Assembly: GCA_024654065.1 (NCBI GenBank)
Contig: JANLIQ010000056.1
Span: forward strand, 1-57,267
DNA length: 57,267 bases
Direction: 5' to 3'
DNA from: Candidatus Berkelbacteria bacterium
GTDB taxonomy: Bacteria; Patescibacteriota; UBA1384; 2-12-FULL-50-11
The position numbers and the translations under genes are program-made. Positions 54,441-57,267 of the stretch are shown here, one piece after another. Within the stretch, counting starts at the first letter, position 1; every line of letters begins with the position of its first letter. The notes under the pieces are model-generated. The model saw only the letters and a list, made by a program, of their open reading frames with translations, searched no databases and was not told where the DNA came from.

Positions 54441-55496
54441 TTATAGCCGCGGTGCGATTTCTTTAACCTTTTGCGTCAACTTGTGCGAATCAGCGTGTCC
54501 GATGTGACCTAAGTACGAGGGTAGGGCCTTTTCGATATCTTCCGCCAAATCAGTTTTAAGTCTCTTTAACATCCGCTTAACGGTCTTCCGACGCGGTAGG
54601 CTGTAACGAGGGAGGGCGATATAGCCAACAAAGTCGATTCCTTGGGAGAGTTTCCGCAAAGAGACTTTATTCGGGTGGATTTGCAGTTTTAATCGTTCTT
54701 TAAGAAATAGGTTCAACTCGACCAAGCAGCCAAGCAGATAATCCGGATCGGTCGAGAGAATCACAAAGTCATCAGCGTAGCGTAAGTAGTATTTAATTCT
54801 TAGCTCATGATTCACGAACTTATCAAGCGGGTCCATGTAGACGTTTGCAAAAAGCTGACTCGTTAGGTTCCCAAGTGGCATTCCTTTGCCGGACGAGAAA
54901 TGAAAACTCTCAATAATTAGCTTTAACAATTGCAGCAGTCGCTCATCCGCAAGCCGTTCTCGTAATAGTTCTAACAGAACTTCATGGTCGATCGAATCAA
55001 AGAATTTTTTAATATCCATTTTGATTGCCCAGCAGGGACGAGTGTAATTGCCGCTAACCTCCCGGCTGAAGACAGCTACTCGCTCAAAAGCTTTGTGTGT
55101 ACCTTTGCTGTCACGGCAGGAATACGAGTCGAAAATGAAAATTTTATCAAAAGCCGTGTAGAGTCTTTGGTAGATGGCCTGATGGAGCAAACGGTCGCGG
55201 ACCGGCGCTTTGCTAATCATCCGCGACTTTGGATCGGTAATGCGAAACTGCTGATAACCGCCAGGTCGGTATATTCCGTTTTCCAAATCTTCATGAAGTT
55301 GAAAAACTTTGTCTTCAAGGCGAAATTCAAATTCTTGAATATCAGGTTTGCTCCGTTTGCCTTTCCGATAGTTCTTCCAGGCTAAGAATAGATTGTCTAA
55401 AGAGATAATTTGTGCAAAAGTTCCCTCATGGAACAAAACCCGGCTTTTAAGCCCCCCCCCCAACGGAATTTTCTCCACAGGGGAGATTCCGATCAT
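54441..55496 (-). CDS. DGR-type reverse transcriptase
   Basis: RT motifs are IKMDIKKFFDSIDH (motif 2/A), GMPLGNLTSQLFANVYM (the DGR-diagnostic [I/L]GxxxSQ motif) and YLRYADDFVILS (YxDD). There is no maturase/X or endonuclease domain. It is adjacent to the TR/VR pair. A possible alternative TTG start is at 55436. Confidence 0.9.
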   Translation of the reverse strand: MIGISPVEKIPLGGGLKSRVLFHEGTFAQIISLDNLFLAWKNYRKGKRSKPDIQEFEFRLEDKVFQLHEDLENGIYRPGGYQQFRITDPKSRMISKAPVRDRLLHQAIYQRLYTAFDKIFIFDSYSCRDSKGTHKAFERVAVFSREVSGNYTRPCWAIKMDIKKFFDSIDHEVLLELLRERLADERLLQLLKLIIESFHFSSGKGMPLGNLTSQLFANVYMDPLDKFVNHELRIKYYLRYADDFVILSTDPDYLLGCLVELNLFLKERLKLQIHPNKVSLRKLSQGIDFVGYIALPRYSLPRRKTVKRMLKRLKTDLAEDIEKALPSYLGHIGHADSHKLTQKVKEIAPRL

Positions 55497-55815
55497 CCAA
55501 AAGCTCTACGAGTTCCAACTGGAGTTGCATACTTGCGTTATTTCCTTTCCTAAAGTTGATAAGCACACCCTTGGCCAACAGCTTCAGACTAAAACCCTCC
55601 AGTTGATCGAGACAATTTTCCTAGCCAGTCGTCAGACGGTCGACACCAAGAAAGGCACCCTGCTTGAGTCAAACAGTCAGCTCGACCTACTGAAACTATT
55701 AGTTAGAATGAGTGCCGATATCAAAGCCCTAAATCAGAAGAAGTATATGTTATTGCAAAGAATGCTTCAAGAAGTTGGTAAAATGCTTGGTGGATGGCTC
55801 AGAAGCCTAGACTAA
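55393..55815 (+). CDS. avd: Avd-like accessory variability determinant (four-helix bundle), encoded on the opposite strand to RT/TR/VR
   Basis: ...IIQKLYEFQLELHTCVISFPKVDKHTLGQQL...LDLLKLLVRMSADIKAL...LLQRMLQEVGKMLGGWLRS parallels Bordetella phage bAvd (FPK/IPRKH..., ...EVGRILGSWI). The conserved core starts at about 55480, where there is no ATG/GTG/TTG. The only ATG (55393) makes a 104-nt head-to-head overlap with the RT. Confidence 0.7.
   Translation: MSKEIICAKVPSWNKTRLLSPPPNGIFSTGEIPIIQKLYEFQLELHTCVISFPKVDKHTLGQQLQTKTLQLIETIFLASRQTVDTKKGTLLESNSQLDLLKLLVRMSADIKALNQKKYMLLQRMLQEVGKMLGGWLRSLD
55452..55461. repeat. Homopolymeric tract C10 (+ strand) / G10 (- strand)
   Basis: Counted directly: gCCCCCCCCCCaacgg. 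It encodes LGGG in the RT frame (codons 12-15) and SPPPN in the long avd frame. Confidence 0.95.
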
Positions 55816-55843
55816 CCAAAACTCCCCGCGATCAGGCGGGGAG
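55814..55843 (-). terminator. Hairpin plus U-tract immediately 3' of TR (terminator-like; possible TR-RNA 3' structure)
   Basis: Minus-strand CUCCCCGC-CUGAUC-GCGGGGAG followed by UUUUGGUU. It begins 13 nt after the end of TR/VR homology and also lies just past the avd stop codon on the other strand. Confidence 0.5.
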
Positions 55844-55855
55844 AAACACTGACAG

Positions 55856-55989
55856 TTGCGGCAGAACACCAGACGGTAGTTGCCATTCCAGACATTGTCC
55901 GGGTTGGCATAGTTCCTGTTGACCCACGAACCGTTGGAATTGCGTTCAACGTTGAGGACGTTCAGGTTGCCGTTAGCGTCCGCTTTGTG
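55856..55989 (-). repeat. DGR template repeat (TR)
   Basis: This is the invariant, adenine-bearing copy. Its minus-sense pseudo-ORF is Asn-rich (ADANGNLNVLNVERNSNGSWVNRNYANPDNVWNGNYRLVFCR). The tracked ORF 55807-56028 is this repeat, not a gene. Confidence 0.9.
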
Positions 55990-56340: not shown

Positions 56341-57033
56341 TTACTTGCGGCAGAACACCAGACGGTAGTAGCCACTCCAGACAATGTCCGGGATGGCATA
56401 GTTCCCGTAGACCCACGAACCGTAGGAATAGCGTACAACGCTGAGGACGATCAGGTCGCCGTAAGCGTCCGCTAAGGGTTCGGAAACGACGATCCGCCAC
56501 TCGTCCATCGGCTGATCGGTGTACTCGCGGCGAAGCTGCAGAGCAGTCTCGTCGGGGCACTTACCGAAGCCGAACTCGTCGAGCTTGGCGTAGATGTCGC
56601 TGACCTTGGCTCCGTTGGGGAAACCCAACTCGGCGACCGTCGCCGTATACAGATCGAGCTTGCGCTCCTCTGTCTCAACGGTGAACAACTTGTTCTTGAC
56701 GACCTCCTTCGCCCAATCGGACAGCTTGTGACCTTCGGTTTCGACGGTCTTCTGCAAATCCTTCTTGTTCGGGTGGGTGCCAACGGTAATGGTCTTCCAG
56801 GCCGGGCGCTCGCTGAATGCGAGAACTTCGGCGCGCTTGGTAGCGCGGGCTTCGAACAGCTTGTAGAGTTCCTCGACAAAGTCGGGATCTCCCTTCACCA
56901 ATTCAAGCTTGGCAAGGCCGCCGGGGTACTTGAGCGACGCGTCTTCGACGATGCGTCCCATGTGCTTGGCGAGGCCGTCAGAGACGGGCTTGAATTCGGA
57001 AGTTCCGGGTGTAGTTGAAGTAGGCTGAGACAT
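56341..57033 (-). CDS. DGR target (variable) protein, VR at the extreme C-terminus
   Basis: GC-rich ORF. The preferred start is ATG 57033 (AAGGAG upstream), giving 231 aa with no signal peptide or TM helix. The C-terminus is ...ADAYGDLIVLSVVRYSYGSWVYGNYAIPDIVWSGYYRLVFCRK-stop. Confidence 0.85.
   Translation of the reverse strand: MSQPTSTTPGTSEFKPVSDGLAKHMGRIVEDASLKYPGGLAKLELVKGDPDFVEELYKLFEARATKRAEVLAFSERPAWKTITVGTHPNKKDLQKTVETEGHKLSDWAKEVVKNKLFTVETEERKLDLYTATVAELGFPNGAKVSDIYAKLDEFGFGKCPDETALQLRREYTDQPMDEWRIVVSEPLADAYGDLIVLSVVRYSYGSWVYGNYAIPDIVWSGYYRLVFCRK
56345..56478 (-). repeat. DGR variable repeat (VR)
   Basis: Aligns to 55856-55989 at a 489-nt offset. The 16 mismatches are all TR-A to VR-T/G/C in the minus sense, and the other 118 positions are identical. 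Confidence 0.9.
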
Positions 57034-57161: not shown

Positions 57162-57190
57162 ACTATACCACAATCTATCGAGAAAGTCAA
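57162..57190 (-). promoter_or_regulatory. Strong sigma-70-like promoter of the DGR target gene
   Basis: Minus-strand TTGACT-17 nt-TATAGT with an extended -10 TG (TGGTATAGT), about 130 nt upstream of ATG 57033. Confidence 0.5.
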
Positions 57191-57267
57191 GAGAATTGAG
57201 GGTAATGTGGATTCTAAACCTAACCCGCCAGGCAATGTAGAATAAGCGGAAAAGAAAGGCGGGTCAG

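What the first reader, a model, noticed from the sequence alone, without database searches (positions are those of the whole stretch)
55436..55496. G10/C10 homopolymer inside the head-to-head RT/avd start region: candidate phase-variable ON/OFF switch for the DGR
A run of exactly 10 C (+ strand, 55452-55461) lies 35 nt into the RT ORF, where it encodes codons L12-G15. It also lies inside the only ATG-initiated version of the divergent avd ORF.

- If those long ORFs are real, a +/-1 slippage frameshifts RT and Avd simultaneously.
- If the real starts are the TTG at 55436 (RT) and a non-canonical codon near 55480 (avd), the tract sits in a very short divergent promoter region. There, tract length would change promoter geometry.

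Homopolymer tracts of this length are established slipped-strand phase-variation elements. Examples are the poly-C tracts in Bordetella fim promoters and the repeat tracts between the divergent Haemophilus hif promoters. I am not aware of a contingency locus that gates mutagenic retrohoming.
Basis: partly seen in the sequence, partly recalled or inferred. Interest (0 to 1): 0.72.

Follow-up and report, generated by a model that had tools for sequence, protein, structure and literature searches.

The report
Slippery repeat gating a diversity-generating retroelement
The run of ten C's is one length variant of an unstable repeat found where the two enzyme genes of a targeted-hypermutation system start back to back in most relatives, so it probably works as a heritable, reversible switch on that system.

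Summary
The C10/G10 run at 55452-55461 is real and is the only G/C run longer than 6 in the 57 kb window.

It lies where avd (+) and the reverse transcriptase gene (RT, -) of a genuine diversity-generating retroelement (DGR) meet head to head. All 13 TR/VR differences fall at TR adenines.

**It is a clade feature.**
- Among 61 non-redundant relatives with the same TR-(avd)-RT layout (Patescibacteria, RT 43-73% identical), about 75% carry a simple repeat at this junction.
- Most carry G7-G13, always G on the RT strand. Others carry (GA)n, (CT)n or (GT)n.
- Repeat density is about 200-fold above the flanking DNA.

**Its length varies.** Near-identical genomes differ there and almost nowhere else. 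The window has 10 and its sister MAG has 9. A second Berkelbacteria species has 9, 10 and 11.

**It probably sits in coding sequence.**
- Repeat-free relatives always keep an ATG, usually the complement of RT's conserved His codon, in frame with avd (10/10).
- Repeat-bearing loci do so in 14/39, as expected for random phase.
- So the tract most likely lies in the 5' end of avd, and in this lineage probably of RT too.
- The window's C10 allele puts avd out of frame; C9 restores it.

The phase-variation reading is supported. Switching of expression is inferred, not shown. I found no published description.

The parts
55452..55461 (.). Simple-sequence repeat: C10 on the + (avd) strand, G10 on the - (RT) strand. 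This is the hypermutable element.
   Evidence: The sister MAG has C9. Homologous tracts of G7-G13 occur in relatives.
55428..55430 (+). Inferred genuine avd start codon (ATG). It is the exact complement of RT's conserved His codon CAT. It is out of frame with the avd body in this C10 allele and in frame with C9 or C12.
   Evidence: Prodigal calls a 128-aa Avd from this ATG in the C9 sister contig. Homologues P0135 and P0136 start MEQ....
55393..55815 (+). avd ORF as open in this allele (TTG start, 140 aa). The Avd four-helix-bundle domain runs from about 55486 to 55812. The conserved leader NGIFSTGE (55462-55485) has no start codon.
   Evidence: (bAvd 74.5 bits; NF033474 81.3 bits against a cut-off of 80).
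54441..55496 (-). DGR reverse transcriptase ORF, 351 aa as annotated by PGAP (MCR4278080.1). It reads the tract as Gly13-15. Alternative in-frame starts are GTG 55478, TTG 55463 (abuts the tract, with GGAG 9 nt upstream) and TTG 55436 (downstream of the tract, used in the sister MAG annotation, 331 aa).
55856..55984 (-). Template repeat (TR).
   Evidence: 129 nt, 90% identical to VR, with 13/13 differences at TR adenines.
56345..56473 (-). Variable repeat (VR) at the 3' end of the target gene.
56341..57033 (-). DGR target gene (230 aa from ATG 57033; the mechanical ORF extends to TTG 57102). It has no Pfam family.
55822..55843 (-). G+C-rich hairpin followed by TTTT, immediately 3' of TR on the TR strand. 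It looks like an intrinsic terminator.
57162..57190 (-). Near-consensus sigma-70-type promoter match upstream of the target gene (TTGACT-17-TATAGT with TG).
   Evidence: This is a consensus match only.

Best explanation
The tract is a contingency locus: a hypermutable simple-sequence repeat maintained by selection at the head-to-head junction of avd and RT in TR-(avd)-RT ('B3') DGRs of Patescibacteria.

**Proposed mechanism**
- Slipped-strand mispairing during replication changes its length by one unit.
- In the window's lineage, the two reading frames overlap across the tract in codon-on-codon antisense register.
- avd starts at ATG 55428, the complement of RT's His codon, and reads the tract as a Pro run.
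- RT starts upstream of the tract and reads it as a Gly run.
- Tract length therefore decides which start codons are in frame with each gene body.

**Predicted states for this genome**
- n = 9 or 12: avd is in frame with its ATG, and RT is in frame with the starts of the codon-complement frame.
- n = 10 (this window): avd is cut off from its ATG. RT is in frame only with a different set of starts (ATG 55496, GTG 55478, TTG 55463).
- n = 8 or 11: neither gene has an upstream start.

Avd is required for cDNA synthesis in the Bordetella phage DGR (PMC6182149, seen here only as title and abstract; the requirement itself is from my own knowledge). Gating Avd should therefore gate mutagenic retrohoming. 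This would be a heritable, reversible ON/OFF or volume control on a targeted hypermutation machine.

**Shown**
- Existence of the tract.
- Clade-wide conservation as a repeat of varying motif.
- Length polymorphism between near-identical genomes.
- The frame relations.
- Avd's upstream ATG is obligatorily in frame where no repeat exists.

**Inferred**
- That slippage occurs within populations.
- That frame determines protein output.
- That the DGR is thereby switched.
For: 1. **Non-random presence.** The tract is the only G/C run longer than 6 in the window, against about 0.04 expected.

2. **Conservation.**
- avd is divergent from RT in the Patescibacteria relatives, with 9-100 nt between the homology-defined N-termini.
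- A G run of 7 or more lies in that gap in 42 non-redundant loci (RT 43-73% identical).
- It is always G on the RT strand.
- Lengths, counted on the 38 of those loci that also passed the avd filter, are 7:2, 8:8, 9:16, 10:7, 11:4, 13:1.
- DGRs with avd on the same strand as RT have none.

3. **The motif varies but a repeat stays.** Loci without poly-G carry a dinucleotide repeat at the same place:
- (GA)13 in L053
- (GA)n in L005
- (CT)21 in L060
- (CT)6 in L009
- (GT)13 in L015
- (GT)8 in L058
- (GT)9 in L071
- (TG)11 in L077

4. **Enrichment.** There are 46 repeats in 61 junction windows (8.8 kb) against 9 in 372 kb of flanks, about 215-fold by hand calculation.

5. **Length polymorphism among near-identical sequences.**
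- Window G10 against the sister MAG G9: 0 mismatches in 5.8 kb, and only one other indel and one SNP in 20 kb.
- A second Berkelbacteria species has G9 (L135), G10 (L133, L134) and G11 (L136) at 99.6-99.8% identity. The tract is the only gap in each pairwise alignment.
- That species' 90% RT cluster holds three N-terminal forms, one per frame upstream of the tract: 354 aa in 4 members, 343 aa in 5, 348 aa in 1.
- P0002 against P0132.
- L096 G8 against L122 G9, L090 G10 against L091 G11, and L082 G9 against L084 G10.
- L015 (GT)13 against L061 (GT)14.

6. **The tract lies inside avd coding sequence.**
- The avd frame is open from the tract to the conserved [ILV]P[IV] motif in all 32 loci examined. 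By my hand count that is roughly 226 codons without a stop.
- The leader FSTGE is conserved at protein level, with synonymous third-position changes, and contains no start codon.
- In all 10 repeat-free loci an ATG 7-18 codons upstream is in frame. The inter-gene gap is a multiple of 3 in 9 of 10.
- In repeat-bearing loci the ATG is in frame in 14 of 39, and the gap is uniform modulo 3 (11/11/14).
- Fisher p = 2.4e-4, or 1e-3 after merging related loci.

7. **RT is also affected in part of the clade.**
- Close relatives' RT ORFs read GGG followed by a conserved basic stretch plus [LI]FH, with no start codon in between.
- In the decayed-tract loci L007 and L014, the only canonical RT start lies upstream of the former tract.
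- Loci with no in-frame canonical RT start at all occur only where the gap is not a multiple of 3.
Against: - No read-level data were available, so within-population heterogeneity is not shown. Differences of one unit between assemblies could in principle be consensus errors at long G runs.
- Neither the avd ATG nor most RT candidate starts has a clear Shine-Dalgarno sequence. The target gene in the same window does have one (GGAG).
- Several lineages have canonical starts for both genes downstream of the tract, for example L075, L026, L036, L085 and L146. There the repeat cannot act by frameshifting a CDS, so one mechanism may not fit the whole clade.
- At n = 10 the RT has an RBS-like GGAG 9 nt upstream of the tract-abutting TTG 55463. 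If that is the true start, RT and Avd would be ON in different phases, which is hard to reconcile with a joint requirement.
- One species (P0101) shows G9, predicted avd-out-of-frame, in all three independent assemblies shown (11 contigs carry the identical RT protein). This sample is biased, because the look-up required an identical RT protein.
- The strict strand bias (poly-G always on the RT strand) is not predicted by a pure mutability model.
Confidence: 0.62

Rival explanations
1. Same hypermutable repeat, different lever. The tract lies in the shared 5' control region (promoter spacer, initially transcribed region or 5' UTR) of the divergent avd and RT transcripts. Its length would tune transcription or initiation geometry, as with Bordetella fim poly-C or Haemophilus hif (TA)n. 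It would not frameshift coding sequence.
For: - Many loci have canonical ATG, GTG or TTG starts for RT 13-33 nt downstream of the tract. About 10 loci have an in-frame stop between the tract and the RT start.
- Several loci have avd GTG or TTG, or ATG in L146, downstream of the tract.
- An A/T-rich 'AAAAT' element sits 5-6 nt upstream of the tract, and 'TTAnAGGAA' sits just downstream of it, on the RT strand.
- A terminator-like hairpin after TR implies that RT needs its own promoter near here.
Against: - The consensus scan predicts no sigma-70-type -35/-10 pair around the tract. The window's target promoter shows that this organism uses canonical promoters.
- The motifs flanking the tract carry little information, 0.2-0.5 bit per position.
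- This rival does not explain why repeat-free loci keep the upstream avd ATG in frame 10/10, with gaps that are multiples of 3.
- It does not explain why the avd frame is open from the tract onward in every locus examined.
Confidence: 0.17
2. RNA-level recoding rather than a heritable switch. The long C/G run would promote transcriptional slippage, ribosomal +1 slippage of tRNA-Pro on CCC-C, or poly-Pro stalling. Some in-frame Avd and RT would then be made whatever the DNA length. The repeat would act as a constitutive attenuator that keeps the enzymes scarce, and DNA polymorphism would be a by-product.
For: - The phase of assembled loci is random: 14/39 in frame, and the gap is uniform modulo 3. 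This is what one expects if the DNA phase is not under selection.
- One species keeps the predicted OFF phase in all sampled assemblies.
- From my own knowledge, not tested here: CCC-C motifs near the start of an ORF are prone to +1 frameshifting, and PPP motifs need EF-P. A +1 ribosomal slip would rescue exactly the 'needs -1' class, to which the window's C10 allele belongs.
Against: - Dinucleotide repeats replace poly-G in nine lineages. They are good DNA-slippage substrates, but they are not known ribosomal or RNA-polymerase slippage sites of this kind.
- From my own knowledge: transcriptional slippage in bacteria is documented mainly for A/T runs.
- Random phase is equally expected for a true contingency locus that is mostly OFF.
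Confidence: 0.12
3. A structural DNA element. Homopurine-homopyrimidine tracts (G)n and (GA)n can form H-DNA, and (GT)n can form Z-DNA. Placed between divergent promoters, they would absorb or sense negative supercoiling, or bind a regulator. Length variation would be incidental.
For: - Every repeat type seen here (G, GA/CT, GT) is a classic non-B-DNA former. A/T-type repeats are absent from the junction although the genomes are A+T-rich.
- The element lies between divergently transcribed genes.
- The strict strand bias of poly-G suggests a sequence-specific constraint.
Against: - There is no direct evidence for it.
- From my own knowledge: G/C runs are also the preferred contingency repeats in other A+T-rich bacteria such as Campylobacter.
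- It does not explain the frame constraints in repeat-free loci, nor the open avd frame from the tract onward.
- An RNA fold of the RT 5' region is unremarkable, z = -0.16. That speaks against a structured RNA but not against DNA structure.
Confidence: 0.06
4. Chance homopolymer, or an assembly or sequencing artefact with no function.
For: - Poly-G is error-prone on Illumina platforms.
- The window and its sister MAG also differ by one other 1-bp indel.
Against: - The tract recurs at the same junction in dozens of assemblies from unrelated studies and years, including 2011-2016 groundwater data.
- Enrichment over the flanks is about 215-fold.
- The same length is reproduced by independent assemblies in several lineages: L059/L068, L019/L065, L022/L073, L023/L074.
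Confidence: 0.02

Closest known systems
Poly-G/C contingency genes of Campylobacter jejuni, Neisseria meningitidis and Haemophilus influenzae (translational phase variation by slipped-strand mispairing)
   Same: - An uninterrupted G/C run of 7 or more near the 5' end of an ORF.
- Length polymorphism between near-identical strains.
- About one third of alleles in frame.
- The repeat motif can be replaced by another repeat in relatives.
   Different: - The gated genes are the enzymatic module (Avd, and probably RT) of a DGR, not a surface structure or a restriction-modification enzyme.
- One tract lies in two overlapping, oppositely oriented ORFs.
- The hosts are uncultured Patescibacteria.
- Switching has not been shown experimentally.
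Bordetella pertussis fim2/fim3 promoter poly-C, and the Haemophilus influenzae hifA/hifB (TA)n between divergent promoters
   Same: A repeat in a very short region between or upstream of genes. The hif case also involves a divergent gene pair controlled by one repeat.
   Different: - Those repeats lie in the -35/-10 spacer and act on transcription.
- No flanking -35/-10 pair was found here.
- The frame evidence points to coding sequence in this lineage.
Phase-variable DNA methyltransferases (phasevarions) and repeat-controlled mutator genes such as mutL/mutS switches (recalled from my own knowledge)
   Same: A repeat switches an enzyme whose activity changes many downstream phenotypes or the mutation supply. 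This is second-order control of variability.
   Different: The enzyme here drives targeted adenine mutagenesis of one variable region, not genome-wide methylation or mismatch repair.
Architecture B3 DGRs, TR-(avd)-RT, reported as 90% of the CPR set (Wu et al. 2018, PMC5758913)
   Same: The window's DGR has exactly this layout: target and VR, TR, inverted avd, RT.
   Different: That survey does not mention a repeat at the avd/RT junction, overlapping starts or promoters. Text searches found no occurrence of 'promoter' or 'start codon'.
Contingency loci in phages T2 and T4 (bioRxiv 2025, PMC12633550)
   Same: Hypermutable repeats used for bet-hedging outside the classical pathogens.
   Different: Different genes. 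The paper holds no occurrence of 'diversity-generating retroelement'.

Membership tests
Diversity-generating retroelement (DGR) | TR/VR repeat pair whose differences fall at TR adenines | tested here: met
   129-nt repeats at 55856-55984 and 56345-56473, 90% identical. All 13 differences are at A in TR on the - strand.
Diversity-generating retroelement (DGR) | Reverse transcriptase adjacent to TR | tested here: met
   RVT_1 94.7 bits. The sequence contains GNLTSQLFANVY, which I recognise from my own knowledge as the DGR-type motif. Relatives are Patescibacteria RTs that mostly carry an adjacent Avd homologue.
Diversity-generating retroelement (DGR) | Avd accessory protein | tested here: met
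   NF033474 DivGenRetAVD 81.3 bits (cut-off 80). Pfam bAvd 74.5 bits (cut-off 40).
DGR architecture B3, TR-(avd)-RT | avd on the opposite strand, between TR and RT | tested here: met
   TR(-) 55984..55856, avd(+) to 55815, RT(-) from 55496. Definition from PMC5758913.
Simple-sequence-repeat contingency locus | Uninterrupted repeat long enough to slip (poly-G/C of about 7 or more), over-represented relative to expectation | tested here: met
   C10, with about 0.04 expected per window. About 215-fold enrichment at the junction across 61 loci.
Simple-sequence-repeat contingency locus | Located in the 5' part of an ORF or in a promoter | tested here: met
   The tract lies between avd's inferred ATG (55428) and the Avd body, and within the annotated RT ORF. 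Which start codons are actually used was not determined.
Simple-sequence-repeat contingency locus | Repeat number differs among closely related strains while the flanks are conserved | tested here: met
   Polymorphic sets are 10 vs 9; 9/10/11; 11 vs 10; 8 vs 9; 10 vs 11; (GT)13 vs (GT)14, at 99.6-100% flank identity. A further pair, 9 vs 10 (L082/L084), is only 94.5% identical..
Simple-sequence-repeat contingency locus | Length heterogeneity within a clonal population, at read or colony level | not testable with these tools
   No reads are available, only consensus assemblies.
Simple-sequence-repeat contingency locus | Repeat length switches expression ON and OFF | not testable with these tools
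   Only the frame consequences were computed. The comparative control with repeat-free loci supports frame dependence of avd.
Promoter-spacer phase variation (Bordetella fim type) | Repeat lies between recognisable -35 and -10 hexamers, so that length sets the spacer | tested here: inconclusive
   The scan predicts no promoter-like pair around 55452-55461. Only weak A/T-rich motifs flank the tract across loci.
Structured regulatory RNA | Stable, conserved secondary structure involving the tract | tested here: not met
   RNA fold of 55540..55400 (-) gives z = -0.16 against shuffles. By eye, the local hairpin seen in the window is absent from the closest relative L003. No alignment fold was run.

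The most novel reading that the evidence does not exclude
Most TR-(avd)-RT DGRs of the Candidate Phyla Radiation carry a built-in, heritable and reversible switch. It is a slippage-prone repeat placed in the antisense overlap of the avd and RT reading frames, and it turns the whole mutagenic module on and off at high frequency. If so, a hypermutable locus governs a hypermutation machine. Populations of these tiny episymbionts would always hold a minority of cells that are diversifying their target protein and a majority that have frozen it.
Probability: 0.5. Interest if true: 0.85.

Novelty: new variant of a known kind. Interest (0 to 1): 0.8.

Why it matters
How DGR activity is regulated in nature is largely unknown. 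The systems are abundant in Patescibacteria/CPR, where nothing can be tested genetically yet.

- **A testable prediction.** A repeat-based switch would explain how cells avoid continuously scrambling a target protein that already works. VR microdiversity in metagenomes should track the repeat phase.
- **A simple sequence marker.** The junction gap modulo 3 would score DGRs as ON or OFF in metagenomes.
- **Annotation.** It explains the inconsistent annotation of avd and RT starts in these genomes. In this one species RT is annotated as 351 aa or 331 aa, and Avd is annotated as 96 aa by PGAP in one MAG and called as 128 aa in the collection's gene calls for the other.
- **Design.** It suggests a principle for synthetic DGR tools: an overlapping antisense pair of ORFs sharing one repeat, giving co-ordinated control of two genes.

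Tried and rejected
- **DNA pattern scan of JGI metagenome contigs.** I searched for the tract flanks with a variable gap and got 0 hits. The species is not in that collection.
- **Exact look-up of the 351-aa RT and of a 389-aa neighbour.** Neither is on record. The window's own contig was later identified through cluster membership.
- **IMG/VR scan with the RT.** Only distant relatives appeared, 35% identity or less. Their junctions were not examined.
- **Promoter scan.** No convincing promoter was found around the tract. By eye, '-10-like' hexamers occur on either side of the tract (TAGAAT, TAAAAG, AAAAT) and fit a leaderless or G-initiated transcript in some loci. They carry little information and are confounded with coding on the other strand. 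I did not build on them.
- **RNA structure.** The fold is not better than shuffles.
- **Poly-G as a Shine-Dalgarno sequence for RT.** Spacing to the RT start is 13-39 nt in most loci. Rejected.
- **Concordance of required shifts.** The shift required for avd and the shift required for RT appeared to agree in 6 of 8 close relatives. I rejected this as evidence. The avd ATG is the complement of an in-frame RT codon, so the agreement is a geometric identity whenever the RT start lies in the codon-complement frame.
- **In-frame fraction of the tract-abutting TTG/GTG on the RT strand.** About 8 of 16 are in frame, which is not informative.
- **Exact-protein look-ups for within-species polymorphism (P0101, P0115, P0124).** These are biased towards one phase, because the query protein includes the tract.
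- **Literature.** Seven full-text searches and three papers read found no link between DGRs and simple repeats, homopolymers, contingency loci or frameshifted avd. Paul et al. 2017 (Nat Microbiol), the main survey of CPR DGRs, is not held. It could not be fetched under the PMC id I tried from memory and did not turn up in a title search, so prior description there cannot be excluded.
Full report
**1. The observation**

The + strand carries exactly ten C at 55452-55461. It is the only G or C run longer than six in the 57,267-base window. About 0.04 runs of 10 or more C or G are expected under an iid or first-order Markov model.

On the - strand the run begins 35 nt into the 351-aa RT ORF that starts at ATG 55496. 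It supplies the last base of L12 (TTG 55463-55461) and Gly13-15.

The ATG at 55428 is not in the avd frame in this sequence. With C10 the only canonical start in frame with avd is TTG 55393. The ATG opens a short dead-end ORF ending at 55553.

**2. Context: a genuine DGR**

| Element | Strand | Coordinates | Evidence |
|---|---|---|---|
| RT | - | 55496..54441 | RVT_1, 94.7 bits |
| avd | + | ..55815 | NCBIfam DGR Avd 81.3 bits (cut-off 80), Pfam bAvd 74.5 bits |
| TR | - | 55984..55856 | |
| VR | - | 56473..56345 | |
| Target gene | - | 57033..56341 | |

- TR and VR are 129 nt long and differ at 13 positions, all TR adenines.
- The order target/VR, TR, inverted avd, RT is architecture B3, 'TR-(avd)-RT'. 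Wu et al. report it for 90% of their CPR DGR set (PMC5758913).
- A hairpin plus T-run directly after TR on the TR strand (55843..55822) looks like an intrinsic terminator. RT therefore probably needs its own promoter near the junction.
- The Avd profiles start at residue 33-34 of the 140-aa ORF, and there is no canonical start nearby.

**3. Source and the sister genome**

- The window is a whole 57,267-bp contig of an NCBI MAG named Candidatus Berkelbacteria bacterium. PGAP annotates its RT as the 351-aa form (MCR4278080.1) and its Avd as only 96 aa.
- A second MAG, GCA_024653705.1 (contig JANLHU010000127.1), is the same organism.
- Over 20 kb compared, it differs from the window by one SNP, one 1-bp indel near 57205, and the tract, which is C9 there.
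- In that contig the RT is called from TTG 55436 (331 aa). Avd is called from the ATG (128 aa, MEQNPAFKPPPNGIF...). The two calls overlap by 9 nt.

**4. The tract is a clade feature**

I searched GTDB genomes and JGI metagenomes with the RT and obtained 130 loci.

- In the Patescibacteria relatives (RT 43-73% identical) avd is always divergent from RT, with 9-100 nt between the homology-defined N-termini.
- A G run of 7 or more lies in that gap in 42 non-redundant loci, always as G on the RT strand.
- Lengths, counted on the 38 of those loci that also passed the avd filter, are 7:2, 8:8, 9:16, 10:7, 11:4 and 13:1.
- DGRs with avd on the same strand (RT below about 45% identity) have nothing comparable.
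- Most divergent loci without poly-G carry a dinucleotide repeat at the same spot:

| Repeat | Locus |
|---|---|
| (GA)13 | L053 |
| (GA)n | L005 |
| (CT)21 | L060 |
| (CT)6 | L009 |
| (GT)13 | L015 |
| (GT)8 | L058 |
| (GT)9 | L071 |
| (TG)11 | L077 |

- In 61 non-redundant divergent loci there are 46 repeats in the 145-nt junction windows, against 9 in 372 kb of flanking sequence. That is about 215-fold by hand calculation.
- What is conserved is therefore a slippage-prone repeat, not a particular sequence. A neutral G9-G11 run would decay quickly, and Gly or Pro codons would not stay homopolymeric.

**5. Length is polymorphic among near-identical genomes**

| Comparison | Repeat lengths | Flank identity |
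|---|---|---|
| Window vs sister MAG | 10 vs 9 | 0 mismatches in 5.8 kb |
| Second Berkelbacteria species: L135; L133 and L134; L136 | G9; G10; G11 | 99.6-99.8%, the tract is the only gap |
| P0002 vs P0132 | about 11 vs 10, inferred from N-termini | same 90% cluster |
| L096 vs L122 | 8 vs 9 | 0 mismatches in 1133 nt |
| L090 vs L091 | 10 vs 11 | 4 mismatches in 1200 nt |
| L082 vs L084 | 9 vs 10 | 94.5% |
| L015 vs L061 | (GT)13 vs (GT)14 | 1 mismatch in 1200 nt |

- In the second Berkelbacteria species (RT 72% identical to the window), the 90% RT cluster contains three N-terminal forms. They correspond to the three frames upstream of the tract:
  - MNKRNFNWGELRGGG..., 354 aa, 4 members
  - M/VGGGLNRR..., 343 aa, 5 members
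  - MGRIAWGGG..., 348 aa, 1 member
- Several lineages give the same length in independent assemblies (L059/L068, L019/L065, L022/L073, L023/L074). Lengths are therefore reproducible and are not assembly noise.

**6. Where the tract sits relative to coding sequence**

*The avd side*
- The avd frame is open from the tract to the conserved [ILV]P[IV] motif in all 32 loci examined. By my hand count that is roughly 226 codons without a stop.
- In the window's subclade the leader (N/K)FSTGE is conserved, with synonymous third-position changes, and contains no start codon.
- Almost every locus has an ATG upstream of the C run. It is usually the exact complement of RT's conserved His codon; in the window, CAT 55430..55428.

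*The decisive control: loci that have no repeat and so cannot switch*
- In all 10 of them an ATG 7-18 codons upstream is in frame with avd. In 9 of 10 the gap between the two gene bodies is a multiple of 3.
- In repeat-bearing loci the ATG is in frame in 14 of 39. The gap is uniform modulo 3 (11/11/14).
- Fisher p = 2.4e-4, or 1e-3 after merging related loci.
- This identifies the upstream ATG as the real avd start. It places the repeat inside the 5' end of the avd ORF, and it shows that about two thirds of assembled repeat-bearing loci are out of frame.

*The RT side*
- Close relatives read GGG followed by a conserved basic stretch plus [LI]FH, with no start codon in between. Examples are GGGLKSRVLFH, GGGLNRRVLFH and GGGRPRRRVLFH.
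- In the decayed-tract loci L007 (GAGGGGCC) and L014 (GGGGGA), the only canonical RT start lies upstream of the former tract.
- Loci with no in-frame canonical RT start occur only where the gap is not a multiple of 3.
- The TTG at 55436 is conserved as TTG in only a minority of close relatives. Others have ATT, GTT, CTT or TTT. It is probably a Leu codon.

*Exceptions*
- Other subclades have clear RT ATG starts 13-33 nt downstream of the tract, some with an in-frame stop between the tract and the start. Some also have avd starts downstream of it.
- In those lineages the repeat must act on the 5' UTR or promoter, if it acts at all.

**7. Consequences for this genome**

| Tract length | avd | RT |
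|---|---|---|
| 9 or 12 | In frame with its ATG (MEQNPAFKPPPNGIFSTGEIPII...) | In frame with the starts of the codon-complement frame (...ENSVGGGLKSRVLFHEG) |
| 10 (this window) | Only the distant TTG 55393 is in frame | In frame with ATG 55496, GTG 55478 and TTG 55463; the last has GGAG 9 nt upstream |
| 8 or 11 | No upstream start | Only TTG 55436 |

My best reading is this:
- The sister MAG (n = 9) carries the allele in which both genes are in frame.
- The window carries an allele in which Avd is off, or strongly reduced.
- I cannot say which RT start is used.

The VR consensus is identical in the two MAGs. This is uninformative about current activity.

**8. Mechanism and rivals**

Best explanation, confidence about 0.6: a contingency repeat that gates the Avd/RT module, mainly by frameshifting overlapping 5' coding sequence in this lineage.

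Rivals:
- **Same repeat acting on promoter or UTR geometry.** This is plausible for subclades whose starts lie inside the gap. No -35/-10 pair was found.
- **RNA-level recoding or attenuation.** Candidates are tRNA-Pro +1 slippage on CCC-C, poly-Pro stalling and transcriptional slippage. Random phase fits this rival, but the dinucleotide repeats do not.
- **Non-B DNA between divergent promoters.** All motifs seen are H-DNA or Z-DNA formers, and the strand bias is strict. It does not explain the frame constraints.
- **Artefact or chance.** Excluded for the tract's existence.
- **Structured RNA.** Not supported.

**9. Comparison with what is known**

- The element works like the poly-G/C contingency genes of Campylobacter, Neisseria and Haemophilus. 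It meets the sequence-level criteria for that class: length, enrichment, position and inter-strain polymorphism.
- Population-level heterogeneity and expression switching could not be tested.
- It differs in what it controls (a DGR) and in geometry (one repeat shared by two antisense-overlapping ORFs).
- The B3 architecture is known.
- Full-text searches and three papers read turned up no description of a repeat at the avd/RT junction, of overlapping avd and RT starts, or of phase-variable DGRs. The key survey of CPR DGRs (Paul et al. 2017) is not in the library.

**10. Verdict**

It extends from one locus to a clade-wide design.
- It is a new variant of a known kind of element.
- Interest is high, because it offers a concrete and testable answer to how DGR activity is controlled in the CPR.

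Noticed in passing
window ~57205 (between 57204 and 57206): The only other indel against the sister MAG in 20 kb. The window has CCACA-TTACCC where the sister has CCACAATTACCC. The site is about 15 nt upstream of the -35 hexamer of the near-consensus target-gene promoter (57190..57162, - strand). It could alter an UP-like region or be a real strain difference.
   Followed up: no
window 55822-55843 (- strand): An 8-bp G+C-rich hairpin plus TTTT lies immediately 3' of TR on the TR strand, and 7 nt beyond the avd stop on the other strand. If it terminates the TR transcript, the DGR RNA has almost no 'spacer' downstream of TR, unlike the Bordetella phage system, and RT is not co-transcribed with TR.
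   Followed up: partly
L005, L053, L009, L060, L015/L061, L058, L067, L071, L077 (avd-RT junctions): Dinucleotide repeats (GA, CT, GT/TG; 4-21 units) replace poly-G at the same junction. (GT)13 against (GT)14 distinguishes L015 from L061, which otherwise differ by 1 mismatch in 1200 nt.
   Followed up: yes
All poly-G loci: The strand bias is strict. The homopolymer is G on the RT-sense strand in 42 of 42 loci and never C. No model I tested predicts this. Possibly Pro in Avd and Gly in RT are tolerated but not the reverse, or there is a replication or transcription asymmetry.
   Followed up: no
L147 619-622: In this repeat-free relative the RT and avd start codons share one palindromic CATG, a 2-nt head-to-head overlap. 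Both genes then lack any private 5' region. Promoters and 5' UTRs must lie inside the partner gene.
   Followed up: no
L066, L063, L083 (just downstream of the G run): An in-frame TGA sits where the related locus L017 has TGG (…ATT TGA… against …ATT TGG…). This might reflect an alternative genetic code in those lineages, or a genuine stop that forces RT to start at the downstream ATG.
   Followed up: no
L041 (+554 from the RT start), L071 (+1887), L026 (+3421): Additional G10, C8 and G7 runs occur elsewhere in some relatives' loci. The one in L041 lies inside or just after RT. They may be further contingency tracts in these genomes.
   Followed up: no
L144 vs L145 (RT-upstream tract): Two 99.95% identical loci differ by a G/T substitution at the 3' end of the tract (G10-T against G11). 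This changes the run length without changing total length or frame. It is either an interruption mutation or a typical sequencing error at the end of a poly-G run.
   Followed up: no
window 54441-55815, annotation: Public annotations of the same two genes disagree because of the tract. RT is annotated as 351 aa in one MAG and 331 aa in the other. Avd is annotated as 96 aa by PGAP (start moved to an internal codon) in one MAG and called as 128 aa in the collection's gene calls for the other.
   Followed up: yes
window 56345-56473 vs L001: The VR consensus is identical in the two MAGs that differ in tract length. There is no consensus-level diversification between the two samples.
   Followed up: partly
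window ~38300: The single SNP (A in the window, C in the sister MAG) across 14.4 kb compared with L002. Its gene context was not examined.
   Followed up: no
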